A DNA stretch of 64,000 nucleotides from Sphaerodactylus townsendi (Eukaryota), in the NCBI RefSeq assembly GCF_021028975.2, contig NC_059429.1, positions 103,726,001 through 103,790,000 of the forward strand, in the 5' to 3' direction. Both the position numbers and the translations under genes were made by a program. Every line of letters begins with the position of its first letter. Position 1 is the first letter of the stretch. A model generated the notes under the pieces. That model had not been told where the DNA came from, did not search any database, and was given only the letters and a program-made list of their open reading frames with translations. Of the stretch, positions 7,390 through 37,414 are shown one piece after another.

Positions 7390-7585
7390 CAGTGTCCTGC
7401 TCTGCTAGGAAAGCATCTTCCTCCTTCCTGGAGCGCAGGCAGCTCTCGGCCGCGCTGGCGCTGCCCGCCTCCTCCTCGGGCAAGCGGGGGAAGCTTGTGA
7501 TGCTCATGTAGTCCACGGGCGAGTAGGCGCCCAAGCTGCTCTGCTGGCTCGCCTCCTTCTCGGCTGCACCTGCAGCCGCCGCCAT
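7390..7585 (-). CDS. GGT7: Gamma-glutamyltransferase 7 (glutathione hydrolase 7), coding exon 1; the rest lies beyond the left end of the window
   Basis: MAAAAGAAEKEASQQSSLGAYSPVDYMSITSFPRLPEEE...RKEEDAFLAEQDT matches the GGT7 N-terminus (LGAYSPVDYMSITSFPRLPEDE...RKDEDAFLGDPDT); phase-1 GTGAG donor at 7389. Confidence 0.95.
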
Positions 7586-7850
7586 CCTGCTCTCGCCTCT
7601 CCTGCTCCGGAAGCGACTGCACAGCCCGGGCCGGAGGGGAGCCGGAGCAGGTGCTCGGCGGCCCACGGAGCGATTGCACGCTTCGGCCGATAGGGGGACA
7701 GTGGGCGGGGCTTGTCACCCCCAGGCCGCCCTTCCGATTCATGGAGCCTTTGCGCCGATGCAGACTCCTCCTCCTCACCTGGGGTGCTTCTCGCGTGCAA
7801 AAGATGAGGCATGAGGTGCACCTTCCGACTGCCGGTGGAGGACCGGAGAG
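7586..7850. promoter_or_regulatory. CpG-island promoter/5'UTR of GGT7
   Basis: CpG-dense sequence directly upstream of the ATG, GC box gggcgggg at ~7703. Confidence 0.7.
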
Positions 7851-14600: not shown

Positions 14601-15337
14601 GGCAGGAGGGAGGACACTGGGGGCAGAATTTCACTGGCATTGGGGGGCATGCTTTTTACTGCTTGGCCTGGGCGCTATTATTTTATAAATACTCCCCTGG
14701 TACCATTGTGCCATTGAGCTATTGATATCTTTCCTGGTACCCACCAAATATTTTTAGAAAGTGGTAGCCATTAATGATTTGACTGGCTGAGCAGATTTTT
14801 TTTACATGTTTTGGCGGCAGCTGCCATCACAGAAAAGGATTTTCACTGTGTGACTGAAGGAAAGCTGCAACAGCCATTTGATGGCTGGCTCCACCTCCTA
14901 GGGCAGTCATTTTGTAGCTGCTCTCGCCACACTGTGTAAGAATCCCAAAGGTGCCCACAGGCTCAAAAAGGTTAGGGACCCATGCAGTAGATTAATAATG
15001 ACATAGATTTTTTTGTTCAGGCAAGATATATAGATAAGCTTCACTTGGTCACAAAATGGTGTTGGACAGCACCGTCAAGTTGCAGCCCATTTATGGCTGC
15101 CTCTCATGGGATTTTCAAAGTAGTATAAAATAATATTAGCTATAAAATAATATTAGTTATGCAGTGCAAAGGAACTGCAGCAGGTCTGTACATTGCAGTC
15201 CTATTTGATGCTGTGGCCAGCAATGGGGACCTCCTGTGCTGACTCTATCAATTGTATGAGGATTAAGACTGAATCTTGCATGCTTTTGAAACAACCATCT
15301 ATCATAATGTTCCATTTTTGCAGGTCTATTGACCAAC

Positions 15338-15751
15338 ATGGAATTTTCACCAGAGAAGAAAGAGGCCTTCATTGTGACTCAAGAGATCTATGCAGGCAGA
15401 AAGAGGATCCCTCTGGGGTCTATCGGATGCTTCCTTAAGGGAAAGCACAACATGGGCCGCATTGTTGACCGAAAATCTAGGCCTGTCATAACCCTGATAA
15501 GCAGCCACATAAAACCACTTAGCCACCATCAGGCTGCTCTTTTGCTCTCCATTAAGAGCCCACAAAAGCGATATAGCCTCTTTTGCAGTGAGCAGCACTT
15601 CACCTCCATTTGCTTCCTAAAAATCCATGATGTCGTACAGCTGAGATGTGGCCGGGTGTTGACAGTGGGCATTGTGAGAGGCTTCTGGGAACGGCTCAGG
15701 AATCCTGGCAACGAAGAGCTGAAAATGGTTCTCATTGAGGTGGAGCTGCTG
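15338..15751 (+). CDS. CYLD-like deubiquitinase, coding exon 1 (N-terminus, degenerate first CAP-Gly region)
   Basis: Acceptor tttttgcag at 15323, Kozak ccaacATGg; IPLGSIG / AALLLSIKSPQKRYSLF / VGIVR / VELL| parallel CYLD VPKGSIG / TELLLAITNCEERFSLF / PGVVR / VELL|; GTAAGG donor, phase 0. Confidence 0.85.
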
Positions 15752-16453
15752 GTAAGGGCGTGGTCATACTTTGTTCAGGGTATTCTGGTCAGTGTTCTGG
15801 GCCTTCCAGTAACAGGAAGCTTCTGGTAGAGTGCCTTGACCTTCCCCATTCCTCTCTCCAACCGCGTATGCATAATAATGCACTTTCAGTCCACTTTCAA
15901 TGCACTTTGCAGCTGGATTTTGCTGTTCGGAATAGCAGAATCCACTTGCAAACAATTGTGAAAGTGGATTGGAAGTGCATTATTCTGCATGTACGGAAGA
16001 GACTTTAATCTCTGGGGTTTCTGCTTCTTCCAGTTTAGCTAACATAGTGCAGTGGTTAAGAGCAGTGCACTCTAACCAGGAGAACCAGGTTTGATTCTCC
16101 ACTCTTCCACATGAAGCCTGCGGAGTGACCTTGGACTAGTCACAGTGCTCTCAGAACTCTCTCAGCCCCACCTACCTCTCAAGGTGCCTGTTGTTGGGAG
16201 AGGAAGGCAATTGTGAGCTGCTTTGAGACTCCTTGCAGGAGAGAAAAGCAAATTATAAAAACCAGTTCTTTTTCTCACCTGTGTGTCCCTCATCCTTTAC
16301 TGCACACATCTATTCTAAAATATGTCTGCAAATAGCACGGCTCTTTAAATACAACATTGCTGTTGTTGCGACAAGTCTGCAGTATAGATTTTTGCTTGAC
16401 ACAAATGCTTTACTTTCAACATTAGTCATTCTCTCTGCTTCTCACTGCATCAG

Positions 16454-16586
16454 GATCCCAGGATTATTGCTCTCAGTAACAGCTTCTCCAGACTGAAGGT
16501 TGATGCGAGTAAGATCATCACAGTTAGCTCCAGTATCACCATTTCTCCCTGCCACAAAGAAATTGAGCAAAGATGCCATCGGAAGG
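16454..16586 (+). CDS. CYLD-like coding exon 2 (linker)
   Basis: cag|GAT...AAG G|gtaaga; open frame DPRIIALSNSFSRLKVDASKIITVSSSITISPCHKEIEQRCHRK; phase 0 to phase 1 exactly bridges the neighbouring exons; no recognisable homology. Confidence 0.7.
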
Positions 16587-16932
16587 GTAAGAGGCACCAA
16601 AGGGCCCAACCATTTGACTGGATAACATTTCAGCTTTGTACCTCTCTCCCTGCTATGGGAATCTGTAGGACTGCTATAATATTTTATATACAACATAATA
16701 TAATGATTTGAAACGATTATCTTTTATTTCAGAACGTTACATTTTTTCACAGTCATCTTATTGATAAAAACTTGTGCGCAGCTTCTGTCTCTTGGAGTTT
16801 TGAGTGATGCAGCTTTAAGTGTTTGTAGTAGGGATGGGTATCAACTGAAACCCAACAATAGCTTTGATAAGAGAATAAAAATGGCTTGGCTCCTGCAGTG
16901 AATTTTTATTGGCTGAAGTGATTTCTGTCAAT

Positions 16933-17538
16933 GGCCGATTCCCCACGGTCAATTAATCATGTGATACTCACACGAAATATCAAGGATTCAGGAAGAACTC
17001 CCCGCTGCCTGATCGATGAGCAAGGATTCATCCCGGTTCTGGCGCTCATTCTCCCCCTTATCCCATGTCTTTGCCAAACCTGTTTGAAAGTACTACTTTT
17101 TCAAAAAAACACGTCTTCGATCCAGTTTGGAGGGGAGGATCGGGGGTCTAATCTTGGTTCAAATTTCCCGCCGTGGAGCGTGACACAAATGCCTTACAGC
17201 TAATCAGTGCACATGGTGCTGTTCTCGCAAGAGCACGAGAGAACGAGAACCAACCAAAAACTTGGGCGGGGGAGACGTGATGATGTTCTGACATCATAAC
17301 GTCAGCACGTTTTTGCAGGAGAAAAAAGAAGGTCCCGCCCCAACACGGCACAACAGAAGAGACCCGCCAAGCCGATCGTGTGGTAGTGGGGATTGTTACA
17401 ATTCTTGAATCCGAGATAGGCCTAGATGTCTTCACTGGAAACATGCTGTGGTGAGCAGGTTGAAACCTCGATGAAAAGGTGCAGTTTATTTTCAAACTTG
17501 GTTTGATCTAGATTGAATTTCCCGGTGGGGATTCGGCC
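16933..17538. mobile_element. Non-autonomous DNA transposon (PIF/Harbinger-like)
   Basis: TIR GGCCGATTCCCCAC / GTGGGGATTCGGCC flanked by 3-bp repeat AAT; CpG-rich interior. Confidence 0.65.
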
Positions 17539-17649
17539 AATCCAGTCCAGTGAAGCAGTCACTTTAAGTATCTAGTTATTATAGAGAAGTTGGATTGCTC
17601 CTTCTTTCAATAGGGCTGTAGTCCAATGAAGCACATACTGTTTTTCTAG

Positions 17650-17791
17650 AGGGCAGATACTTAAACCAGAACTGGGCAGAAAATAACACTGAGGCAGCTT
17701 GGAAACAGGATGTTTTGCTGAAGATGGAAGGTGCTATGAAGGGAATCCAAGGACATTGCAATTCCTGTTACCTAGACACAACCCTTTTCAG
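17650..17791 (+). CDS. CYLD-like coding exon 3 (USP Cys box)
   Basis: KMEGAMKGIQGHCNSCYLDTTLFS vs CYLD [20 protein letters not shown]; catalytic Cys TGT at 17766-17768; tttttctag acceptor, gtaggt donor. Confidence 0.95.
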
Positions 17792-17808
17792 GTAGGTGGT
17801 GTGCAAGT

Positions 17809-17911
17809 TGGTTGTTGTGAGTTTTCTGGGCTGTGTGGTGGTGGTCTAGTAGTTTTTGCTCCTAACGTTTTGCCTGCATCTATGGCTGGCATCTTCAGAG
17901 GTATGACACAG
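17809..17911 (-). mobile_element. Penelope-like terminus with decayed hammerhead motif
   Basis: Minus strand reads cctctgaagatgccagccatagatgcaggcaaaacgttagg. Confidence 0.7.
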
Positions 17912-18286
17912 TCCAATTCTAGATTGTGCCAATGCTAAATTGAGCCCAGTTATGTGGGGTATGTGTTTTTTCTCCACATTGTCTCTAACAGTGCTGCTGT
18001 TTTCAAAACCAATGTCTTCCTTTTCCTTTCCTATGTCTGCTGCTGCCTCAAAAGCAATGCTTTGGCCATTTTGGAATGTTCATTTTCCTCATCCCCTGCA
18101 AAATGGCTAACTGTAGTGGTGTTCTGTGTTCTGGCCTTGCTACTGCCTGAGAGCCATTATTATGTAGTCCAGTGCATAAGCTGGGGTGAATTAATAGCAG
18201 GCTGCTGTGGCAACCATTTTGTGCTTAATTGTGCTTAATTCTGTTTTATACATCAGTGTACATATTCTTTGTGTGTTTCTTTGCAG

Positions 18287-18394
18287 TTTATTCAGTTTTT
18301 CTTCTGCCTTGGATAGCATTCTCGATTCTGCTGAGGTACATGATGCAACAGCACAGCAAATACTGAGGGAGCAGATTGTGGAACCGTTGAGACG
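18287..18394 (+). CDS. CYLD-like coding exon 4
   Basis: LFSFSSALDSILDSAEVHDATAQQILREQIVEPLR vs CYLD LFAFSSVLDTVLL...QELLRTEIVNPLR; ttgcag/gtgagt, phase 2-2. Confidence 0.95.
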
Positions 18395-21300
18395 GTGAGT
18401 TCCACCACATTTCTAAAGTATCTGTACTGTGTGGATGAATTGTATTCTTAATGCTGTTGGGTTTTCTGTATTGGAGTATTGTGTATTATGTACTGCATGG
18501 ACATCAGTAGAGGCACTGCATGAACATCAGTAGAGGCACTTTGACTTTTGGGAAAAGAAGGTGAAAATTACACAATACCATTTAACAAATAAACAATGTT
18601 CTACAGAAAGGAGAAAAAGGGGGTTGTGTTCCAGCAATGGGAGCACATTTACTGTACAATTTAAGGGCCAGACTGAACATTACAATTTAATGTTCCCTGA
18701 AGCCTTGCAGCAGCTGTGGTGAATGGCTTTTAAAAAAGAAAAAAAGGAGACACCCCCCCCTCAAGGACTCAGAACAGAGCTAGGGGGCACCTTCCCCCCT
18801 TCTGTTTTTCTGCACAAAATCTGCACTGAGAAGAGTTATTTACCCAATCTTCCTGCTCCACATGGAATATCTTCTCACAAGGAACAGCAAAATCAAGGAA
18901 ATAACTCTCCCCAGAGTGGTTTTTATGTGGAAAACAGCTGAGGAGGGGGGAGGGAACCCTTTCATCTCCCCATGGTGCCAATCCAGACAGGTTCTCCTTT
19001 TAAAAAAAGCTGTTCCCACAGCTGCTATGTGGCTGCAGGTAATATGAATTGGACTAAGGAACCCAGACCCAAATCTCTAAAACAGCAGCGTTTAGTTTAG
19101 CCCTAAGTCTGTTTAAACCAGATCAGCCAATACTGCATGTCAGCATATGGAAGAATGATGAGTCCTGAATATTCTGGAAGTAGAAGCTCAAACAGAACAG
19201 TCTTGCTGAGTCAGACTCAAAAAATATGATCCAATCTGTTGAAATGCCATGGTTTGGGCACACTGACTTGGATCCAGAGAGCACAAGAGGAACTCAGCCA
19301 GGCTATTCAAAATTGCTCATAACCCTTCTCTGCTGCAGGCCCCTGATGATGCTTGGGGCCTCCAAAAACAGCACTGGGTGAAACATGGTGGTCTGCAGTA
19401 GAAGGGAGGTGGATAAAATGTTTCCTCCTGTGGGTGGAAAATCAGGATTTGGATCCAAGCCATTGAAGCAGTTCATTCAGCCTATTACAGCCACTGAAAG
19501 AGATCATCTTATGGATTGTATAAAATATACACAGAACATGAAAGCTGTCCAATGGACAGAGACAACTAATATACAGGAAGGTGTATAGCATCAATCAGAA
19601 TGCCAACCTGATTAATTAGCACGATCATGACAGTTTCCCAAATTTCTCATCTGTGTTTATGAGCCAAGATGAACTATAATCATTTAGAAATCTCCTGTGC
19701 TGTGAGATACCACAGTGTTTTATAGATTAATGTATCAACTAGTTGTTTGAAATCGGTGGAGTTAATTGACTAAAAAGTATTAATCAGTCAAAGCTTCCAG
19801 AAGACTGTTTTGCGATGAAGTAGCATATTTCATTATGTTGTAAGCATAAATTTTCCAGCTCACTCAGGGTAGAAATCATACTTTTATCTCTCAGCTCCAT
19901 AGGCATTCATTTCCACTGGCAGATTTTAAAGATTTCTTAGTTTTACTGAATGACTTGACTTATCAGCAAGATTTAGACTAATATTCAATGGCTCTTCTAA
20001 CTACTCTTTGTGTCCCAGTTCCTCAAGAAATCGGAAGTTGCTGTGTCAGTCTAATTGTCAGAAGAGTAGGAGTTGCTATATTAGCTACATTTTCCCCACA
20101 CATATTCCAAAGCACTCAAGGCAGTATACATCATTTTCTCTTCCTCCATTTTATCCTTGCAACAACCACCCTGCGAAGTAGGTTAAGCTGAAGGAGATCG
20201 CTCACCGCAGGCTTCCTGACAAAGCAGTGATTTGAACTTAGATCTCTCAGATCCTAGTCTGATAGCCTAATCACAACTAGGGTTGTCACTCTCCAGGTGG
20301 TAAGAAAGTACACAAAATTACACTGAAAATGGCTCACAGCAATAAAGTATTACTCAGAAGGAAAACAATTCTCAATGTATTATTTGATAAACTCATGAAC
20401 TGCACCATAGTGCCTAACAATTGAATATCATTGTATAAATCACCATAGTGTTTTACAATAAAGAATCACTGAAAATATATACAGGTACATTTATCTTCAA
20501 CCTACTGTCTACTAAACTAACCAGAACCCTGATTGTGAAATACTTCAAAAGGCTAGTGGAACATGTGAAACCTTTTAGTAATCTTTAGGGTCCATAAACC
20601 TTCTAAGTTGTTCCAAGTCAAAGTGGAATCAACTCTATGGGACCATCCTGGATAGTGGTCTTGTGCAAAGGCTCTTACTGCTGTCCTGGTGAATCTCCAG
20701 GTGATGGCTGGAGATCTCCTGGGATTACAACTGATCACCAGCAGAGATTAGGTCAACTGGATGAGATTGCTGCTTTGGAAGGTGAACTCTATGGCATTAA
20801 ATCCCACTGAAGTCCATCTCCTCCTCAAACTCTCTCAGACTCCACCCCCACCCCAATCTCCAGGTATTTCCCAACCCAGAGCTGGCAACCATAACCACAA
20901 CCCCACACTAGCTCTAACCAAGAATTAGAAGACTGTTAGCTTAGCAACAGAGAAGTGGAACAGCAGTAAAGTGTCTGCCCTTGCAATAGCCCAGGAGCAG
21001 CATAATAATAATAATTGTGCAACAGCTAGCTGTAATTGACTCATAATGAGATTTTCAAGGCAAGAGGAGAGCAGATGTGGTTACCTTTGCCTTCTTCTGC
21101 ATAGCAACCCTGGACCCTCTTGCTGTTCTTCCATTCAAATACTAACCATGGCCAACCCTGCTTAGCTTCCAAGCTCTAATATGATCAGACTGGTCAAGGT
21201 ATTCAGGCTGCTACAGCATATTATAGCAGTTCCCAAAGACTGGCTTGGGCTGTGTAGCTCCAGAAACTGAAAAACTTTTCTCTCTTTCTCTGGCCCAATA

Positions 21301-21688
21301 CCAGTTGCTTTTCCTCCCCACCCTGCCCCAACCATTCCAGGTACCTGTAATCCTGCACTCCTAGGAGACCTGCACTGCCTGTTATTTCTTTTTAAATTTA
21401 TTATTAGATTTTTAGACCGCTCTCCCCTGTTACAACAGTATCAGCTGTTTAAAAGATTTTATTTATGTAAAATCAAAAATAAACAAGGCACCCTACAATA
21501 AAACCCAGTGGAGGGTAGAACAGTGTAAATTATAATAACAATACTTGCATAATCCTGTTAAATAAAAGGGGGGGGGAGAGAGGGGAAGGGAAGGGAGGTC
21601 AGCTGAGATGGATAAATACCATAGCTGGATTCATTACTAATCACTTATAATCATAACAATATATAATCATGGAAATATTGATTGTCAG

Positions 21689-21768
21689 GCATGGCTATGT
21701 GGGAGCTGAGAACGTGATGAATTTAAGGAGATTGTTGCGATCTGACAGCTTCATTACAGAAGAGAAAG
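21689..21768 (+). CDS. CYLD-like coding exon 5
   Basis: HGYVGAENVMNLRRLLRSDSFITEEK vs CYLD YGYVCATKIMKLRKIL...GFTSEEK; gtcag/gtgagt. Confidence 0.93.
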
Positions 21769-21844
21769 GTGAGTGACAAGAGTCTGGCCTCTTTACTGGG
21801 TAGGTTACACTGCACTCCCCCCCCCACCCCGCAAAGTGCAGAAT

Positions 21845-22155
21845 ATTGCTATGGAATATGCTGCCACAGGAGGTGGTGATGGCCACTAACCTGGATAGCT
21901 TTAAAAAGGGCTTGGACAGATTTATGGAGGAGAAGTCGATCTATGGCTACCAATCTTGATCCTCCTTGATCTGAGATTTCAAATGCCTTAGCAGACCAGG
22001 TGCTCAGGAGCAGCAGCAGCAGCAGAAGGCCATTGCTTTCACCTCCTGCATGTGAGCTCCCAAAGGCACCTGGTGGGCCACTGCGAGTAGCAGAGTGCTG
22101 GACTAGATGGACTCTGGTCTGATCCAGCAGGCTAGTTTTTATGTTCTTATGTTAT
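21845..22155 (+). mobile_element. CR1 LINE 3' end
   Basis: WNMLPQEVVMATNLDSFKKGLDRFM-type ORF2 C-terminus and (ttcttatg)n tail. Confidence 0.85.
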
Positions 22156-22733
22156 TCTGAGCAGTGAGGAATTCCAAAGGTAATTCTTATCTGAGTTGAT
22201 TCCTTTTGGAAGGAAGGTTGAGCAGTCCTTTATAATTTTTGTACCATTTGTTTTAATTGCAGATACATTAGTGGAACACAAGTAGAATCGTTATTGGGAG
22301 GAGTGGGGGGAGTGTCGCATCTTTCAAGCCCTGATGGGTGCTTGGACAGAGCCATTTCCCCACCATTAAGGATAACTGAAGTAGCATTACGAAGAAATGT
22401 TACCATTCCTTTTGTCATGGGCAGTAGTTTTCCCCAGGATTCTATTTTTGGCCAATCCCATAAAAAAGAATAACCCACAATAACCAAAATACAGTACCTG
22501 TAACATAACTTTGTGGTTTCATTGTTCAAATCAGTTCTCAGATATTTGTTGAAGTGTCCTTATCTTGTAAGGTAGGTCAGCTTTGCCAGTGGAGTTGAAT
22601 ATGAGTGGCTTGCATATGACCACTTAGTGAGTTTGTAACAAAGATTTGACCTCTCAGTCACAACTCATGCTCAGCCACTATGCTGCAACAGCTTCAGGCT
22701 TTTTGCTACTCTAATGGTTGATCTGGTTTACAG

Positions 22734-22800
22734 ATCCAGAGGAATTCCTGAATGTCCTTCTAGGAGAGGTCTTGGCTATAGAGCCCTTGATCAGAATCAG
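22734..22800 (+). CDS. CYLD-like coding exon 6
   Basis: DPEEFLNVLLGEVLAIEPLIRIR vs CYLD [23 protein letters not shown]; tacag/gtaaga. Confidence 0.95.
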
Positions 22801-24341
22801 GTAAGAATTTGATGTGTTGATTGTTTTCTCTCATCCATTTGAGTGCCATTCTTGGGCCTACATGCAGTGTCAGACTTCAAGGCTTAGGGCTGAAAACTCT
22901 TACAAATAAAAAAAAAGATTCAGTGCCTAGGCAGGTCCTAGAGGTAGAGCCCATCAGTTTTTGACAAGTTGGGTGGTGGGGCCCTGAGCAGAGCACAAAA
23001 AAACCCCTGTTCATTCATTCACTTAAAGTTTAGCTTTTTAAAATGCTGAGAAGGGGGACTACCTTACCCCTTGCAGTTGAGGCAACTTTGAGAAAAAACA
23101 AAAATATCCTGCCCAATTTCTTTCAAGAGTAACCCTAATACTGACCATGAATAAAAAGAAGCAATGGAACATTGGATATGATGGGCCGATTCACAATTTG
23201 TCTTGAGATGGACTTTCAGGATGGACTTTCAGACAGACATACTTTGGGGAGATCCATACTTGGAATTAATACGCAAGCATACAGGGACTTGGTGTGGGTC
23301 AGGACCATGACACTCAGGGAGCTTTCCCAGTCAGGAGCAGCCTCTAAGCATTTGCTTTGTTATCAAAATTTACACATACAGCTGGTTACATTAGTTTCCT
23401 CAAAGAGGCAAATAACATTTCTTGGGGCCATTTCTGGTAAAGAAAATGGCATGGAGGCAGAAAGAGGCATAAGCCCCCTCTCCCCATGTGCTGCAGTCAT
23501 GATACAACTTAAGGGCAACAGGCATATTTGTATACGATCCTGTTTGCAGAGTAACGAGCAGAATGTAGCTTTGTGTGCAACTTTATAGGAACAGTTATCT
23601 AGCTAAAGAACAACCTTTTTAGCTCAGAAATCATTGGAGAGCTTTACTTAAACTGAGAGAGAAACAGACTGTATACATAAACAAAGTACCACATATATAT
23701 CGATACATTCACAGTTCATAGTTCGGTTACAATTTCAAACATAGTCTATATTAAACATTTCAGTCAGAGCTTTTTGGTCTTTCCTCAGCAAGAGTCAGGG
23801 AGCAACTGTTTCCAACTGTCACCTTTAGAATGTTCATAGAGATCTCCCAGAATTCCCTGCTGCTGCATGCAAGCAAGGCTGTAAAATCCAACACCAATGT
23901 GAGCCATCTCATGCCAGGAATTAACTTCTGAGCAGGGAACTCCCAGCCCTCATCTGTCTACAGTCTGCATAAGGCATATGTGAACTGAGTGACAGGTGAA
24001 TTGGCCTGAGGTGAGTTCACTGACTAGATGGGGATAGACTGGCCTAAAGGCTCTCCACTTCCTGGTCCAAAAGGCACATACTAGGATGGAAGGAGATGCT
24101 CACAGCTCCTCTGGGCTACACTTTGAAAACAGCTACCTTCAGAGAAAAGTCTCCTTGCCCTTTTCTCTTCAAATGCAATGGATATATTCTCGTGGCACAG
24201 CTAGGTTACTTTTGGCATGAAGAAGCTGAACTCAGAACTGCTTTCTTTATATCTCAGTGACAATGATACTAGTTGATACTAGTTGATGCACTTGTCTGGA
24301 GGAAAGGACATGTATGTTTCTAAACTTCTTTGCATTCCTAG

Positions 24342-24471
24342 GGCTGGCAACGAAGCACTCGAGTATAATTGTTATCAAATACTTGTGGAGAAAGACGGTA
24401 TGGTCCAAATGCCCACCGTGCAGCAATTACTAGAAGAATCACTTCTCTCCTATGACCTGAAGTTCGCTGAG
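24342..24471 (+). CDS. CYLD-like coding exon 7
   Basis: AGNEALEYNCYQILVEKDGMVQMPTVQQLLEESLLSYDLKFAE vs CYLD [33 protein letters not shown]. Confidence 0.95.
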
Positions 24472-24934
24472 GTGGGTAACTGAGATACATCATGTACAAT
24501 CTTTTTTTGCAGACAACAACTTGCCAGCCTCTTGTGGGGGCGGGAGCGGGGGGAGGGGGGGTAGCAGAGATCCGGAATAACAACTGATCTTCAAACCACA
24601 GGAAACAAATCCCTTGGAGAAATTGACTCCTTTGAAGGGTGGACAAGTCCCTCAAACCCTGCTGTGGCTAGCCTCCTTTGCCAAATCTCCAGGAATTTCC
24701 TAAACTGGAGTTGGCAACCTTACTCTCCAAATCTCCAACAATTACTTAGGGAAAACCAGCTCACTCTCTTTCCCCCACTCCTTCATTTAGTCTGGCTGTG
24801 CAGCCTGTTTCCACTCCCTTCAACGAAGTCAGAAACATACCAGAAAGCATTCAGTACCAGGCTTGCTAACCTCCAGGTACAGACTTCACATGGATGTAAA
24901 TAAGACACAAAATATTAAAACTTTGTTGAAGCAA

Positions 24935-25075
24935 TTTTATTTGTATGCTTACAGTCTTCTTGGTAATTTAGATGGGAAACAGACCTGTAATATTAATATA
25001 TTATTTGTATGTTTATTTATTTGTATGTTTGCAGTCTTCTTGGTAATTTAGATGGGAAAACAGACCTGTAATATT
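24935..25075. repeat. Local tandem duplication (~60-70 bp unit)
   Basis: cagtcttcttggtaatttagatgggaaa(a)cagacctgtaatatt occurs twice. Confidence 0.85.
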
Positions 25076-25491
25076 TACAGAGTTAATATTAGTGATACAA
25101 TTACAAGTTGAATCAAAACATTTTTCCAAGGTAACATGTTCCAGAGAACTCTGAGCTCTTGGTGCCAAGTAGCATGGTTCCCTACCGATTTAAGCAAATG
25201 CTGCCTCGCTGCTATGCCTCTACCAACAGCTGTCTAAAGCCCATTGTATTGTACTTTAGCACAACAGACTTTACTGCTAGTTACACATAATTTCTGTAGC
25301 ACTTTTAATATGCAATGTGCTTTGTAGCATTAATTTTTTAGTCTATGTCCCTGTAACTTGCCATTATCCAAAGTGTACAGATGGAAAACTGAAGCTAAGA
25401 TATTCTTTTCATTTGTAGTTTGCCCTCGCGGAGAACCCATGGCTGAGCTCAGATTTGAATCCCAATCCTTGTGCCAGGATGTACTACATTT

Positions 25492-25495
<4 letters not shown>

Positions 25496-25571
<76 letters not shown>
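25496..25571. repeat. Head-to-head (TG)n / (CA)n microsatellite
   Basis: (tg)n run, then tatatacacata, then (ca)n run. Confidence 0.95.
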
Positions 25572-26375
25572 GCTGCCACCAGGAATTTAATTCCAAATCC
25601 CTTTATACTTTCCCCTGAAATAGTGTGTCTGAGCTTTATAGCAGTTTCGAAGATCTATGTAGTCCTAAGGAAATACAAGTGTGGGACTCCAGGTTACATT
25701 AAACAAATTTAAATTTTTATTTACATATGTTATGTAGCTTAAATGTACAAAACTTGTACAAAAATGTACAAAAAATAAAACATACTGAGACAACAACCTC
25801 TGCAGAGGTGACTTTTCACTTTACATCAATTCACTCTCACTCCTTTACATCTTTGAGATCCTAACAGGATTTGACTCCTTTTCTAATCTCTCACTCCAGC
25901 ATAGATTGACTCAGTCTTCAGTATGGAATAATGTCTCTCTCTCCTCACTCACTCTCTCATTTCAGCACATAATACTTTCTTTCTCTCCAGTTCTGTACAC
26001 ATTCTGGTTCATTTTAGCTCAGACTGATCCTGTCAGTCTACAGCAGAGACTGCCATCTCTCTCTCAAAGTTAGCACAAACTTTCTGGCTCTCCCCCTCGG
26101 TTAAGCACAGAATCTTCCTCAGTCACTCTCCAGTGCCATCCACTCACTTCTCTCTCATCCCATTTTACTCCCCTTTCTTCTACAACTTGCGTCTCAACTT
26201 GCACATAACAGTTTTAAAAGTTACGGTCCTCTAGGCTAGAGAGGAGCATTTCTAAGATATACAGAAATATCAACAAATAACCATTCTGCAGCCCTTGTTT
26301 GTTGTCCAGTCTTTTTGAGCCAACTTCTGCAACAACCATTGGCAGTCACTCTTCAAAAAGTCTCTTCTCTTTCAG

Positions 26376-26484
26376 ATCCCTTCATGCCTTATCTTACAGC
26401 TGCCAAGGTTTGGAAAGGGGTTCAAAACATTCCCATCAGTGTATCCTTCTCTAGAGCTTGACCTGACAGACTTGGTGGACCAAG
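26376..26484 (+). CDS. CYLD-like coding exon 8
   Basis: IPSCLILQLPRFGKGFKTFPSVYPSLELDLTDLVDQ vs CYLD [36 protein letters not shown]. Confidence 0.95.
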
Positions 26485-26633
26485 GTAAGCAAGCTTGTAA
26501 GCATAGCCAAAATTTTATGCTAGTTTAATCTAAGAGTGCTCCATTGGCTTTTTATCAAAGTAAAATGTTGGTACTACAGCAAAGCAGTCATCCTTGAAGG
26601 CAGTAACAAACCTGGGTCCTTGTATTATTGTAG

Positions 26634-26749
26634 CTTCTCAGACTTGTTGTGCATGTAGTGGGCAAGCACCGTATGAATGCTCATGGTGCCACTTGGATTC
26701 CTTCCTGAACCCAAGCCACTTGAGACCATTGAGAGGAATTGCTAAGAAG
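26634..26749 (+). CDS. CYLD-like coding exon 9 (B-box insertion, degenerate)
   Basis: SQTCCACSGQAPYECSWCHLDSFLNPSHLRPLRGIAKK vs CYLD [39 protein letters not shown]; tgtag/gtagga, phase 1-0. Confidence 0.9.
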
Positions 26750-27322
26750 GTAGGAACACCATACAGTTCACCTGAGGGTGGGAATTGCAGGGGGAAAGGG
26801 AGGGCTCTGGAAAGGCATGAGGAAAGGTCACTTGCAGATATGGAGCCAGCCAAATGGCTAATTTCATCTTAGCCTCTCTAAGGCTCCAGATGCAGTTGGC
26901 TTGTTGTCTGGCAGACAAAGAATGATTAGGTACCTACCATTTTCATACAAAAGGCAGCTGCTGTTCTCAGTAGGAAATGGCATCAGTCACCTGCTAAGTT
27001 TCATATAGCTGTTACAAGTGTAGGAATCCCACCAGGAAAAGGGTACAGCCCTATTCATACAGCCACGGGGGTTGAGCAGATATGAGTTCGAACAGAGGGT
27101 GAATCCCCGTTCTACCATGAAAATGGCTGGGTGACCTTGGGCCAATTACTCTCAGTTTAACCTGCCTCATAAGGTGACTGTTGTAAGGATAAAATGGGAG
27201 AGAACAATGTTGTAAAGAACTTCGGGTCCCCATAAGGGACAAATAAAGCTTCTACAATTCTTAAATTTCACATCCCCCCCCCCCCTCGAAACTCCTGACT
27301 GTTGTCTCCTCATTTCTTCCAG

Positions 27323-27512
27323 GTACCTCCTCATCAGCCCAGACAGAAGTATTCCTGCATAGGACAGGAACTCAATAGCTCCTCTACTAAGTCGCAAATA
27401 TTGGAGTTGTTTGCAGTTTTGTGCATAGAGAGCAACCATTATGTGGCTTTTGTTAGATATGGAGCTTCCAGACAATCCTGGCTTTTCTTTGACAGCATGG
27501 CTGGCCGATTAG
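27323..27512 (+). CDS. CYLD-like coding exon 10 (His box)
   Basis: [36 protein letters not shown] vs [40 protein letters not shown]; His at 27437-27439, Asp at 27491-27493. Confidence 0.96.
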
Positions 27513-28627
27513 GTAAGGCAGCATCTTGGGGCTGGTTTTTAACAGGTCCAAAGAGCTTATGTTTTTGCAGGTTATAAAACGAAACCAACTGGCACTGACC
27601 ACTGGATATTTAATTCAGATTTGCGCCCCAGGACTCTGCCACCAGCCTTAGTTCTCCAGAATTTCACTTCAATCATTAGATGAGTCTCTCTAGCAGTGCT
27701 TGAGAACAAACATGATTAGTGCTTTACTGTAAACAAGTTTCCTCCACATTCTCAATGCAATTTAATAAAAAGAAATACAAAAGGTGAAAGGAAATAGAAA
27801 TGTAGTTGGAATACGCACACTTCAGGACAAGAAGAGTAAACTTAGACTGGGGCTTTTGGGAGAACCAGGATGGGTTCCCACACTGTATGACCTTTATGAA
27901 CAGTATAGGCTTAGTTTAGTCTGTGCTACTTCACTCACCTCCACCCTGCAAGCAGGCACAGGCAACAGGAAACCCCAACACAGACTTTACTGGCTACACA
28001 GGAAATCCAAGGTTTTTTTGATGAGTGACATTCTCCCTGCCTCCTCACACCCTTCAAGGATGAAGTAGGGATATTTCTCTAAGGACCTACGAATGCATCC
28101 AGCCACGTCTTGGGGGGATTCATATAGAACTACATTCTGATTAACAAGGGACAATCCGAGCCTTGGAGCAGCTTGTTTATGAAGTACATCCTGAATGTTT
28201 GAGCAATATTTTGCAGCATGGGAAACTTATGGAACGCTCCATTAGTGTCTAGCTCCTATTGGTATAATGCCTGAGGATGCCAAAGGAGGTACATTCCTTT
28301 ATGCTTAGCCTGGCATTAATTTATTCAGGCAAACCAGGGGTCTTCAAGTTTTCCTTTAATCAGAGCTACTTCTGAATAATGAAAATAGCCTGAGCTATGC
28401 CCCAAAGCATGTTACCAAGTTTTGTTCTGTCCTAGCAATAGGGGAGACACTTGATCTAGACTTAATTTAACTGGGTGTTTTCTAGTTTTCCTATTTAAAT
28501 TAACCCTAATATTTTCATCCAAAGCACCGATAAACCTTACTCAGCTCCTTAGTAAATGGATGTTTCTCAGCATAACAATGACCTTTTCATTATTCATACC
28601 TTTGTAACTGATCGTGTATTTCTTTAG

Positions 28628-28824
28628 AGAAAGAGAATGGATCACACATCCCCTTGGTAAAGGCATGTCCACAGCTTGGACACTATCTGGCAATGGCACC
28701 AGAGGACATTTCTGCTGTGGATATCAAGCAAATGGATCAATTTTCCAGAAGACTCTTTTGTGATTCGTATACATTCATGTACCAACGACCAAAATTCAGC
28801 TCTTACAGATGTGAATTCAGATAG
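28628..28824 (+). CDS. CYLD-like last coding exon
   Basis: ENGSHIPLVKACPQLGHYLAM...RRLFCDSYTFMYQRPKFSSYRCEFR* vs CYLD [21 protein letters not shown]...[21 protein letters not shown]; TAG at 28822-28824. Confidence 0.95.
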
Positions 28825-33672: not shown

Positions 33673-33776
33673 ATTGCTATGCCTATAAATCCCTTTAGCG
33701 GAACAATGCCCCAGATCACTCCCAAAATAACAGCAATGATCTGCCGGAACCAATAAATCACATCTAGAAACTCATC
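33673..33776 (-). CDS. RAB5IF: RAB5IF coding exon 2
   Basis: DEFLDVIYWFRQIIAVILGVIWGIVPLKGFIGIA; ctgcag/gtaag. Confidence 0.97.
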
Positions 33777-34714
33777 CTGCAGAGGAAAGACAAGTTCAAA
33801 ATTTGTTATTTCTGAATACGCCTATAATTCATACACATACCTTCCCAAGTGATTCCTGTGTGAACAGAAAAAAACAGGTTTTGACAATACCTGGACTCCC
33901 TTGTCTTCAGGGGATAGTTATTACAGACATCCCTTCCATATTATGACTTTCCCCACTGCAGTTCTGATATATCGCAGGTCAATTTAGGAAATTAAATGGG
34001 AATTTGGGGGGGAGTTATGTGGAAGCCACAGATGACGCACAAAGGCCCCTCTTCGTGGGGCACATTTCTAGCCGGGGGGGGGGGGTGTGAGCGGGCGGGG
34101 GGAGGGAGGGCGAGCGAGCGAGCAAGTCGGCGGGGGAGCGGACGGGGGGGCGAGCGAGTGGGGGGGGTGTGAGCCAAATGGCTCTTTGGTGGTGAGCCAA
34201 ATTTGGTAGTGAGCCAAATGGCTCTTTGAGGGGAAAAGTTTCCCGACCCCTCATTACTCAGTGTTACGGTGTGTGTTTTAGTTGGTTATAACAGGTTGAG
34301 CCTAGTTATTGTATTACATTTTAAAAGAAAAACTAACCAGCTATTCCCACAGAACTTCCCTCCATTAAGAAGTCCGTTCTTGAGGCCCTGACGAAGGTAA
34401 GAGTGACTCTCATTACCCCTCGATCTTGTTGGTCTCTAAAGCACTACTGTACTCAACTGTGGACCAACCCGGCTGCGCTCTGGGACTTCCTTAACAAGAC
34501 AGACTCCCAAGTCTCCTCCCTTCGGAGACTTCATCAAATGTCAGGACGGCCATGTGGCCTTACAATCCCTCCACTCAGCCGTCCCTTCTCCCCTTGTGGG
34601 GCGCCCAGGGCTACCACTCCCACCGCGCCCCTTCCCGATCGTGGCCCTCTCTCTGCGGAGGTCGCCGCAGGGCGAAATCTCCCCTTGCTAAATACGTCCC
34701 GGGCCCGGCCTCAC

Positions 34715-34858
34715 CTTGTCCTCCCAGGCGGAGTCGCTCCGCAGCGCCTTGCTCCACAGAGAGCCCCGCAGGACGCCGCCGTTGGCCACCGGGTGGTGCT
34801 GCTGCTGCTGCTGCTGCGGGTGCGACGTCTGATCCTCCTTCCGCCGGCCGCCGCTCAT
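34715..34858 (-). CDS. RAB5IF: RAB5IF coding exon 1
   Basis: MSGGRRKEDQTSHPQQQQQQHHPVANGGVLRGSLWSKALRSDSAWEDK vs human MSGGRRKEEPPQPQLANGALKVSVWSKVLRSDAAWEDK; GTGAG donor; four exons total 420 nt = 139 aa. Confidence 0.96.
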
Positions 34859-34879
34859 CGTCCCCCACCAGGCCCCGAA

Positions 34880-36027: not shown

Positions 36028-37414
36028 CTAGCAGGGCACCCGTGCTTCCCTATGCATACTTCATCACAGACTCTCTATGGTCAAGCTCAAGACGTGTCTA
36101 TTAATGGCCCTGGGGATGGGAAATACGCCGTCCCCAGGGAGCCATTCACACGTTGCAGCAGCGCCGACCTGACTCTGCTCCCTCTCCCCCCAGGACGGCG
36201 TCAAGCCGCCCTGAAAAACAACCCTTTAAAGGGTTGTTTTTCCTTCAACAGCGTGTTCCTGGTGGCGAAAGTGCTTAACAGCACCGCTGGAACACGCTGT
36301 TTCTTCCAGTCTGACTCACCTTGTCCTCGCCGCCTGTTGAAGCCGGGCCATGCGCTGTCCTCCGACCCTGGAGGTTGGAGGGCAGCGTATGGGCTTCACG
36401 GCCAGCAGGTAGAGGACTATACCGCGTGAGTCGGACGGGAAGGGGAAGAGGCGGCTCCATGCGGAGCCGCCGCCTGCTGGTTTTCTTCAGAGGCCGTCCG
36501 CGACAAGCATACGCGAGCGGTTTCCACCTCCACGCCGGCGGAATTCTTGCCGGCGTGGAGGCGCCCTTATGGCCGTGCAGAAACGGCCTATGAATTTTGG
36601 GGTGACATTCAACATGCTTCTTTACAGCCTGTTTGTGAACTTTGGGGTGACATGCAGCATATCTTTCACAGCCTGTCTGTGGTTTGTTTTTGCATATTTT
36701 GCTGCAGCTTCCTGTAGTTGTCTTTTTATAATGCAATGTGTTATTGCTCTCTTTCACCTGGTGGGCTCCAAAAGACGTCATGTGGAAGCAGCCATTGTAT
36801 TTTCGGGATCCAGAAAGGAAGTGTTCTGCCTTTGGATGCTGATGAGTGAGAAGGCTGTGAAGAGGTTCAGAGTAGGGTTGAAGGGCAGGGAGCTGGACTG
36901 TACCGCCACTGCAGCACATTCCTGGGGACTCATCCCGCCACTTCAGAGCACAACACCAAGCACAGGGTGATCGGAGGCCGAGAGCAGTAAACTTGTCTGC
37001 ACAGCAATCAATCTGATGTCCATATGCAAAACCTGACAAATGTTTAGTAGTCAAAGGTGATAGTGTGGTTTGTAATCTGTTTTGATTGTATTTGGCTGTA
37101 GTGGTGTTTGGCTGTAGCGGTGTTGTTGAAGCTGATGGTGTTTAACTGTCACCCTTAGAATGTTCGTGCAGCATGTCTGTGGACTGAGGGGCTGGTTTGC
37201 CCTTAGAATGTTCGTGCAAATGGCCAGAGATGAGCAGTTAAAACAGTAAATGTGTAATAATTCGACTAAAACTGAATATTTTGAAAAATCCTTTCTTAGT
37301 GAGCACCTAAACCACATAATGAACTGGTGTGCCAAATTTCAGCATTGTAGGTTTGGTAGTTTTTGAGTTCTTTGCATGAGTCAGTGAGTGGTATTTCGCG
37401 TTTATATATATAGA
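36028..37414 (-). mobile_element. Internally deleted Helitron with both termini
   Basis: Minus strand: A|TCTATATATATAAA 5' end at 37414, GC-rich subterminal segment then CTAG|T 3' end at 36028, no TSD; encodes CAWCCALKWRDESPGMCCSGGTVQLP...FLSGSRKYNGCFHMTSFG, typical of the Cys-rich N-terminal region of Helitron Rep/helicase. Confidence 0.85.

What the first reader, a model, noticed from the sequence alone, without database searches (positions are those of the whole stretch)
15752..17649. CYLD-like gene lacks CAP-Gly2, CAP-Gly3 and the TRAF2/NEMO-binding region
Between the VELL-ending exon and the Cys-box exon there are only 1.9 kb with no gap, mostly a SINE and two MITEs. One 133-nt exon bridges the phases exactly. 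In CYLD this interval encodes roughly 390 aa: the rest of CAP-Gly1, CAP-Gly2, the serine phospho-cluster, the PVQES TRAF2 motif and CAP-Gly3. No GFTDG/GKNDG-type CAP-Gly signature is visible. Inference: the enzyme has lost microtubule, TRAF2 and NEMO tethering.
Basis: partly seen in the sequence, partly recalled or inferred. Interest (0 to 1): 0.7.

Follow-up and report, generated by a model that had tools for sequence, protein, structure and literature searches.

The report
Stripped-down CYLD paralog in a gecko
This is an intact second copy of the immune-signalling enzyme CYLD that lizards and amphibians share in a shortened form; it likely shed its docking and activating parts step by step and would work as a weaker, untethered ubiquitin-chain cutter, while the normal CYLD gene sits elsewhere in the same genome.

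Summary
One 133-nt exon (44 aa) replaces the 389 aa that canonical CYLD encodes in this interval. The gene is an intact 11-exon, 561-aa USP with its catalytic triad. It is not a damaged CYLD: canonical CYLD and two further paralogs lie elsewhere in the genome. The short form is shared with other lizards and amphibians (537-592 aa when complete). Fish relatives in the same tree clade keep CAP-Gly3 but already lack CAP-Gly2 and the phospho-patch. The loss was therefore likely stepwise and compatible with whole-exon deletions. New here: squamates also lost two otherwise near-invariant B-box cysteines, and the gecko has Asp at Leu622, the change that blocks SPATA2 binding in human CYLD. By analogy with published truncations, the enzyme is predicted to be weak, Met1-leaning and uncoupled from LUBAC and IKK. 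That is untested. A CYLD-like duplicate lost in mammals is already in print. Verdict: new variant of a known kind, moderate interest.

The parts
15338..15751 (+). Coding exon 1 (aa 1-138): N-terminal SH3-like barrel, helices and first half of CAP-Gly1; ends in phase 0 at the same intron position as the first coding exon of canonical CYLD
   Evidence: HHalign of the clade's N-terminal profile to CYLD 15-210: probability 98.6, E 5e-16
15862..16013 (.). Palindromic dispersed repeat (MITE-like), 61-nt arms, 79% complementary
16037..16286 (.). SINE-like high-copy repeat (class name by resemblance, recalled)
   Evidence: up to 62 hits in 346 kb of held DNA
16454..16586 (+). Coding exon 2, 133 nt, phase 0 to 1 (aa 139-182): short loop, closing strands of barrel 2, linker; no glycine hairpin
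16932..17538 (.). About 610-bp element with terminal inverted repeats and AAT target duplication (Harbinger-like MITE; class recalled)
17650..17791 (+). Coding exon 3, 142 nt, Cys box; catalytic Cys at 17766-17768 (human C601)
18287..18394 (+). Coding exon 4; Asp codon at 18324-18326 at the position of human Leu622, followed by a 5-residue shorter loop
21689..21768 (+). Coding exon 5 (USP)
22734..22800 (+). Coding exon 6 (USP), 67 nt as in canonical CYLD
24342..24471 (+). Coding exon 7 (USP)
26376..26484 (+). Coding exon 8 (USP), 109 nt as in canonical CYLD
26634..26749 (+). Coding exon 9, degenerate B-box: C788, C791, C799, C802 kept; C817 and C820 positions are Arg (26732) and Ala (26741); I790 position is Ala
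27323..27512 (+). Coding exon 10, His box; catalytic His at 27437 and Asp at 27491; D893 position is Gly
28628..28824 (+). Coding exon 11 to the TAG stop
7405..7587 (-). Upstream neighbour, first coding exon of a gamma-glutamyltransferase gene (GGT7 by recalled sequence; bounds approximate)
   Evidence: PF01019 exons on the same strand just left of the window
33673..34859 (-). Downstream neighbour, first two exons of an EMC6/Rab5-interacting family gene (RAB5IF by recall)

Best explanation
This is an intact, 561-aa CYLD paralog with its catalytic triad, shared in short form by lizards and amphibians, that likely arose in the early vertebrate genome duplications, likely lost its accessory exons stepwise, and is predicted to act as a weak, Met1-leaning deubiquitinase uncoupled from the usual CYLD partners. 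Shown: gene structure, four CYLD-family lineages in this genome, domain content by clade, residue changes. Inferred history: (1) the ancestor shared with the C962 paralog had a hairpin-less CAP-Gly2 and no phospho-patch; (2) early in this lineage the phase 0-0 exon carrying the second half of CAP-Gly1 and the first half of CAP-Gly2 was lost, leaving one chimeric bare barrel (about 65% likely; the alternative is internal shortening of that exon); (3) in tetrapods the two CAP-Gly3 exons (together phase 1-1) were lost; (4) in squamates the B-box lost zinc ligands. Inferred mechanism: the USP domain cuts Met1 and Lys63 chains much as the isolated human USP domain does, without the CAP-Gly3 and Ser568 boost; it dimerises and binds SPATA2 poorly, so it is not held at LUBAC; the conserved N-terminal two-barrel module is the remaining candidate for targeting.
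For: Open 1,686-nt frame with GT-AG at all 10 introns, identical to the last 561 aa of an independent public model, P0269. All USP intron phases match canonical CYLD on C14. CAP_GLY by Pfam scan: 0 of 5 lizard and 0 of 4 amphibian proteins, one domain in 7 of 7 fish proteins, three plus CYLD_phos_site in gecko CYLD. In the listing, PF01302 is shown for 0 of 29 tetrapod rows (some have no precomputed entry) and for 50 of 50 fish rows that I grouped with them, none with PF16607. IQ-TREE, 55 USP sequences, 349 columns: tetrapods 100, tetrapods plus bony fish 100, this clade plus the C962 clade 100, CYLD plus C15 100, the four together 99, with lamprey and hagfish outside. Exon phases allow each step as a frame-keeping loss, and the sister paralog has a 76-nt phase 0-1 exon with a hairpin-less CAP-Gly2 end. 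AlphaFold model of Paroedura residues 1-159: pLDDT 91, pTM 0.86; exon 2 gives the last two strands. C601 is kept in 11 of 11 squamate rows, H871 and D889 in all 7 rows that reach them. C817 and C820 are kept in 0 of 10 squamate rows against 19 of 19 amphibian, 50 of 50 fish and 14 of 14 CYLD rows (the window and P0009 are the same gene). Human data, passages read: isolated USP prefers Met1 and is barely active, and CAP-Gly3 reverses this (PMC8511506); L622D and B-box deletion lose SPATA2 binding, and the B-box dimerises (PMC5031558); B-box deletion disturbs cytoplasmic retention (PMC5584213). A 572-aa amphibian-type relative lies on a 2,264-nt Logan contig, which implies a spliced transcript (inference).
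Against: No biochemical or transcript evidence for this gene; all function is transferred from human CYLD at about 43% USP identity. Support for including cartilaginous fish in the clade is only 64 in IQ-TREE (0.989 in FastTree), and lungfish groups with ray-finned fish, against the species tree. Synteny of the fish genes was not tested. Leu622 is not universal: among 35 outgroup rows the commonest residues are Phe 9, His 8, Tyr 7, Asn 5, Leu 2, and lamprey and hagfish have His, so a non-Leu residue need not mean no SPATA2 binding; only the gecko Asp matches the tested mutant. Profile tests could not assign exon 2 to CAP-Gly1, 2 or 3 (all E above 0.1). D893, invariant in 50 fish, 14 CYLD and 35 outgroup rows, is Gly in 18 of 19 amphibians and most squamates, so chain preference may differ from the human USP domain. 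The squamate stem is long (0.45 against 0.07 for amniote CYLD) and several gecko models are truncated (P0001, P0008, P0030), which also fits decay.
Confidence: 0.7

Rival explanations
1. A redundant paralog under relaxed selection, decaying towards loss; the missing parts are tolerated damage and the protein has little or no job.
For: Progressive loss of modules; long squamate branch; truncated models in three geckos; no bird, turtle, crocodilian, snake or mammal row for this clade among the best 120 of 1,915 hits; a CYLD-like duplicate is reported deleted in mammals (PMC5381560).
Against: Frame and triad intact; 65-68% identity between gecko and lacertid or iguanian proteins and 43-47% to amphibians over nearly the whole length; N-terminal module has residues invariant in 75 of 75 aligned sequences.
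Confidence: 0.17
2. A neofunctionalised enzyme: the reduced barrels form a new binding module that replaces CAP-Gly3, so the enzyme is fully active, with altered chain preference or a new compartment such as the nucleus.
For: Compact, confidently modelled two-barrel module; changes at D893 near the proximal-ubiquitin loop; B-box loss linked to loss of cytoplasmic retention in human CYLD.
Against: Fold matches are generic SH3/Tudor-like barrels, best Z 7.8, rmsd 2.4 over 64 residues, below the tool's own level of trust; no partner identified.
Confidence: 0.1
3. Artefact or recent truncation: exons are missing through mis-assembly, or this is the species' CYLD that lost its middle.
For: The interval is repeat-rich, and short-read contigs break at those repeats. 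A nearby family member on contig C962 does look badly assembled or broken.
Against: The same junction is present in other lizards and 19 amphibian proteins; canonical 952-aa CYLD is intact on C14.
Confidence: 0.03

Closest known systems
CYLD (USP-family Lys63/Met1 deubiquitinase; PDB 2VHF, 3WXE-3WXG)
   Same: USP fold (Foldseek E 1e-33, target TM 0.89), catalytic triad, loop insertion of the same length after the catalytic Asp, homologous N-terminal module, identical USP intron phases.
   Different: 561 against 952 aa; no Pfam CAP-Gly, no phospho-patch, no conserved Ser568, Asp at Leu622, B-box missing two cysteines, much faster evolution.
CYLD-like duplicate 'CYLDL' of Vlasschaert et al. 2017 (PMC5381560, passages and one supplement search)
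   Same: A CYLD duplicate discussed with the vertebrate genome duplications and reported absent from mammals.
   Different: The passages read give one duplicate and no architecture; this genome holds three non-canonical lineages, and I cannot tell which one they meant. The fish gene called cyldl lies beside kank4 and dmrt2b (PMC9095985, passages), not the neighbours seen here.
Short CYLD (sCYLD) splice form lacking exons 7 and 8 (PMC10320722, passages)
   Same: Natural catalytically complete CYLD without TRAF2- and NEMO-binding sites.
   Different: A splice variant of the canonical gene; here the loss is larger, genomic, fixed and in a separate gene.
Fish members of the same clade (about 680-775 aa) and the C962 sister paralog
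   Same: Same N-terminal module, no phospho-patch, shortened loop after position 622.
   Different: Fish members keep CAP-Gly3 and a full B-box; the C962 clade also keeps an intact CAP-Gly1 and a hairpin-less CAP-Gly2.

Membership tests
CYLD subfamily of USP deubiquitinases | USP domain closest to CYLD, with Cys-His-Asp triad | tested here: met
   phmmer of the ortholog P0002 to 2VHF E 4e-93; triad codons at 17766, 27437, 27491
CYLD subfamily of USP deubiquitinases | Shared exon-intron structure of the USP domain | tested here: met
   Phases of exons 3-11 equal those of the last nine exons of canonical CYLD on C14
CYLD subfamily of USP deubiquitinases | Cleaves Met1 and Lys63 chains | not testable with these tools
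   Needs a diubiquitin panel assay
Canonical CYLD ortholog | Three CAP-Gly domains and CYLD_phos_site | tested here: not met
Canonical CYLD ortholog | Groups with vertebrate CYLD in the USP tree | tested here: not met
   Groups with the C962 clade at 100; the ortholog is the C14 gene
Canonical CYLD ortholog | Intact zinc B-box and Leu622 | tested here: not met
   C817 and C820 positions are Arg and Ala; position 622 is Asp
CAP-Gly domain (PF01302), for barrel 2 | Glycine hairpin motif and Pfam score | tested here: not met
   No motif match and no Pfam hit
CAP-Gly domain (PF01302), for barrel 2 | Descent from CAP-Gly1 and SH3-like fold | tested here: inconclusive
   First half matches CAP-Gly1 (HHalign probability 86, E 5e-6); fold matches are generic, CAP-Gly chains only at Foldseek E 0.15-0.17
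Ohnolog of the vertebrate genome duplications | Four jawed-vertebrate lineages with invertebrate outgroups outside, in paralogous chromosome blocks | tested here: inconclusive
   2+2 topology met; neighbours fit the human 20q11 and 16q12 blocks only by recalled gene names; no multi-genome synteny

The most novel reading that the evidence does not exclude
Lizards carry a naturally 'bare' CYLD that rebuilt two half CAP-Gly domains into one new barrel, dropped every known activator and tether (CAP-Gly3, Ser568, B-box dimer, SPATA2 site) and works as a monomeric, LUBAC-independent Met1-chain editor aimed by its own N-terminal module, possibly outside the cytoplasmic receptor complexes. The fish, amphibian and lizard proteins would form a natural deletion series for CYLD regulation.
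Probability: 0.25. Interest if true: 0.65.

Novelty: new variant of a known kind. Interest (0 to 1): 0.45.

Why it matters
CYLD regulation has been dissected with engineered truncations and point mutants of the human enzyme. This clade offers the same series made by evolution: fish with CAP-Gly3, amphibians without it, lizards also without a full B-box, and geckos with the equivalent of L622D. It makes directly testable what the isolated USP domain is good for in a cell and what the little-studied N-terminal module does. It also shows that databases give one name to four jawed-vertebrate CYLD lineages. It does not change CYLD biology in mammals.

Tried and rejected
No RNA holder was listed for 15300-18450; the four runs laid were genomic-type contigs and gave no splice joints. 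Neither says anything about expression. Complex prediction of the N-terminal module with ubiquitin gave no answer (score 0.00, alignment not used); it is not evidence either way. The ESM Atlas gave no result. No CYLD CAP-Gly chain appeared among the 50 rows shown in either VIA search; this does not exclude the fold. Profile tests to assign exon 2 to a CAP-Gly half were all non-significant. A region search with the caecilian N-terminus found only 4 amphibian proteins; it missed known relatives, so it cannot show absence in birds, turtles or mammals. First exon models had off-by-one donors and a wrong exon 9 acceptor (fixed). In the FastTree run two rows (P0089, P0136) were mis-cut; fixed. No upstream coding exon was found by tblastn with eight ortholog N-termini. 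dN/dS was not run, as no ortholog coding DNA was at hand. Earlier findings of the scan: none for CYLD. Literature searches listed no paper whose title or abstract start describes this architecture; I saw listings only, apart from passages of PMC5381560, PMC8511506, PMC9095985, PMC5031558, PMC5584213, PMC10320722 and PMC5135002. Figure 1B of PMC5381560 could not be seen and may show which paralog was meant.

Full report
Observation. The interval 15752-17649 has no N. It lies between a phase-0 donor after the VELL codons and the phase-1 acceptor of a 142-nt Cys-box exon. A scan for splice-site pairs gave two candidates with one shared donor; only 16454-16586 (133 nt) is open in phase 0. With it the gene is 11 coding exons, 15338-28824, 1,686 nt, 561 aa, with GT-AG at every intron and no internal stop. 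The product equals the last 561 residues of the public model P0269. Repeats cover 1,043 of the 1,898 nt in three blocks. Pfam CAP_GLY has no match in the window among 21 listed in the genome. Custom HMMs scored at most 6.2 bits over 7700-29000 against 50-145 bits on the canonical locus.

The canonical gene exists. Searches of the own genome show four CYLD-family lineages: C14, C15, C962 (two copies, one partial) and the window. C14 gives an open 952-aa frame, 924 of 952 positions identical to leopard gecko CYLD. Its six exons between the VELL exon and the 142-nt exon encode aa 169-557, 389 residues, against 44 here. From the 142-nt exon onward all intron phases agree, and three exons have the same length (142, 67, 109 nt).

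The short form is old. Exon 1 found 8 lizard proteins at 69-90% identity. The Paroedura protein found 10 squamate and 19 amphibian rows, 537-592 aa where complete, followed by fish proteins of about 680-775 aa (best 120 of 1,915 hits). Pfam scans gave no CAP_GLY in 5 lizard and 4 amphibian proteins, one in each of 7 fish proteins at the CAP-Gly3 position, and three plus CYLD_phos_site in gecko CYLD. In the IQ-TREE tree of 55 USP domains, tetrapods (100) join bony fish (100); cartilaginous fish join at 64; this clade pairs with the C962 clade (100), CYLD pairs with C15 (100), and lamprey and hagfish lie outside the four (99). FastTree on 89 rows gave 0.989 for the whole clade. Lungfish groups with ray-finned fish, so dating rests on the species tree, and fish synteny was not tested. 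The neighbours are a gamma-glutamyltransferase gene, an EMC6/Rab5-interacting family gene and, 27 kb past the window, a TALE homeobox. I recall these as GGT7, RAB5IF and TGIF2 of human 20q11, a block paralogous to 16q12, where CYLD lies (16q12.1). That fits an ohnolog but rests on recall.

What exon 2 does. The N-terminal profile of the clade matches CYLD 15-210 (probability 98.6). AlphaFold of Paroedura 1-159 with 75 aligned sequences gives pLDDT 91 and pTM 0.86: a first barrel, three helices, and a second barrel whose last two strands come from exon 2. Fold searches return only generic SH3, Tudor, chromo and BAH barrels, best Z 7.8. So CAP-Gly1 is predicted to be reduced to a closed barrel without the glycine hairpin, not left half-built. 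All three CAP-Gly domains of C14 are split by a phase-0 intron at the same point. Loss of the 303-nt phase 0-0 exon would fuse the first half of CAP-Gly1 to the second half of CAP-Gly2. The sister paralog on C962 has such a second-half exon, phase 0-1, 76 nt, already without the hairpin. This is the simplest path, but sequence profiles could not confirm it; I put it at about 65%. The two CAP-Gly3 exons together are phase 1-1 and can drop out between exon 2 and the Cys-box exon, which fits the tetrapod state.

Changes in the USP domain (human numbering from 2VHF). The triad is kept. C817 and C820 are present in 19 of 19 amphibian, 50 of 50 fish, 14 of 14 CYLD and 34-35 of 35 outgroup rows, and in 0 of 10 squamate rows; H825 and H833 are eroded, and the full-length model is unconfident there (pLDDT under 50 at 403-443). 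Position 622 is Leu in all 14 CYLD and both C15 rows, Asp in 4 gecko rows (two are this same gene), Tyr or Asn in other lizards, and mixed in outgroups. D893 is Gly in 18 of 19 amphibians. Ser568 is not conserved in the clade; alignment there is loose. The gecko's own CYLD has no PxQx[ST] motif.

Mechanism, inferred. In human CYLD the isolated USP domain is barely active and prefers Met1; CAP-Gly3 binds ubiquitin, raises activity and reverses the preference; Ser568 phosphorylation boosts Lys63 cleavage; CAP-Gly1 and 2 bind microtubules and CAP-Gly3 binds NEMO (PMC8511506, passages). The B-box dimerises, and L622D or B-box deletion loses SPATA2 binding (PMC5031558, passages). B-box deletion disturbs cytoplasmic retention (PMC5584213, passages). 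The window protein lacks or alters each of these parts. I therefore expect a weak, Met1-leaning, probably monomeric enzyme that is not held at LUBAC or IKK and is aimed, if at all, by its N-terminal module. None of this was measured. The main rival is slow decay of a redundant gene: the squamate stem is 0.45 against 0.07 for amniote CYLD, and three gecko models are truncated.

Comparison and novelty. A CYLD duplicate deleted in mammals is in print (PMC5381560, passages), databases already label these proteins CYLD-like, and a splice form without TRAF2 and NEMO sites is known (PMC10320722, passages). CAP-Gly number also varies from 0 to 3 among 48 distant family members scanned, so loss of these domains is not rare. 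Five literature searches listed nothing on the four-lineage set, the stepwise losses or the squamate B-box; only listings were seen. Verdict: real, conserved, a new variant of a known kind; interest 0.45.

Noticed in passing
G000:C962:201000-223200 (minus) and 96900-102800 (plus); loci L036-L038, L041-L042: Third CYLD paralog in two copies on one unplaced contig. The longer copy's Cys-box exon is out of frame relative to the partial second copy; assembly error or pseudogene.
   Followed up: partly
G000:C15:34065700-34085000 (minus); loci L027-L029: Fourth CYLD-family gene with three CAP-Gly-like domains, sister to canonical CYLD, keeps Leu622; groups with an axolotl protein.
   Followed up: partly
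window 36318-36460, minus strand: GC-rich stretch ending in the same nine bases and donor as exon 1 of the Rab5-interacting family gene at 34713-34859; possibly a partial duplicate of that exon (seen).
   Followed up: no
G000:C14 canonical CYLD, exon encoding aa 376-502: Gecko canonical CYLD lacks a PxQx[ST] TRAF2-type motif that the seal protein has (tested on P0105, P0089 and P0092).
   Followed up: partly
proteins P0133, P0160, P0171 (unnamed): CYLD-type USP domains fused to two or three Death domains in distant relatives.
   Followed up: no
proteins P0126 (lamprey), P0128 (hagfish): Cyclostome CYLD models show two CAP-Gly domains by Pfam, without a recognisable CAP-Gly2.
   Followed up: partly
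proteins P0030, P0001, P0008: Models of this gene in three other geckos are truncated; may be annotation errors or lineage-specific decay.
   Followed up: no
window 16932-17538: MITE family with at least 39 other copies at 87-90% identity and 13,001 first-look candidates in the genome.
   Followed up: partly
G000:C14:290000-292300 and C14:25043000-25044500: Two SPATA2-like loci besides the main SPATA2 match on C5; one more than the SPATA2/SPATA2L pair I recall from mammals.
   Followed up: no
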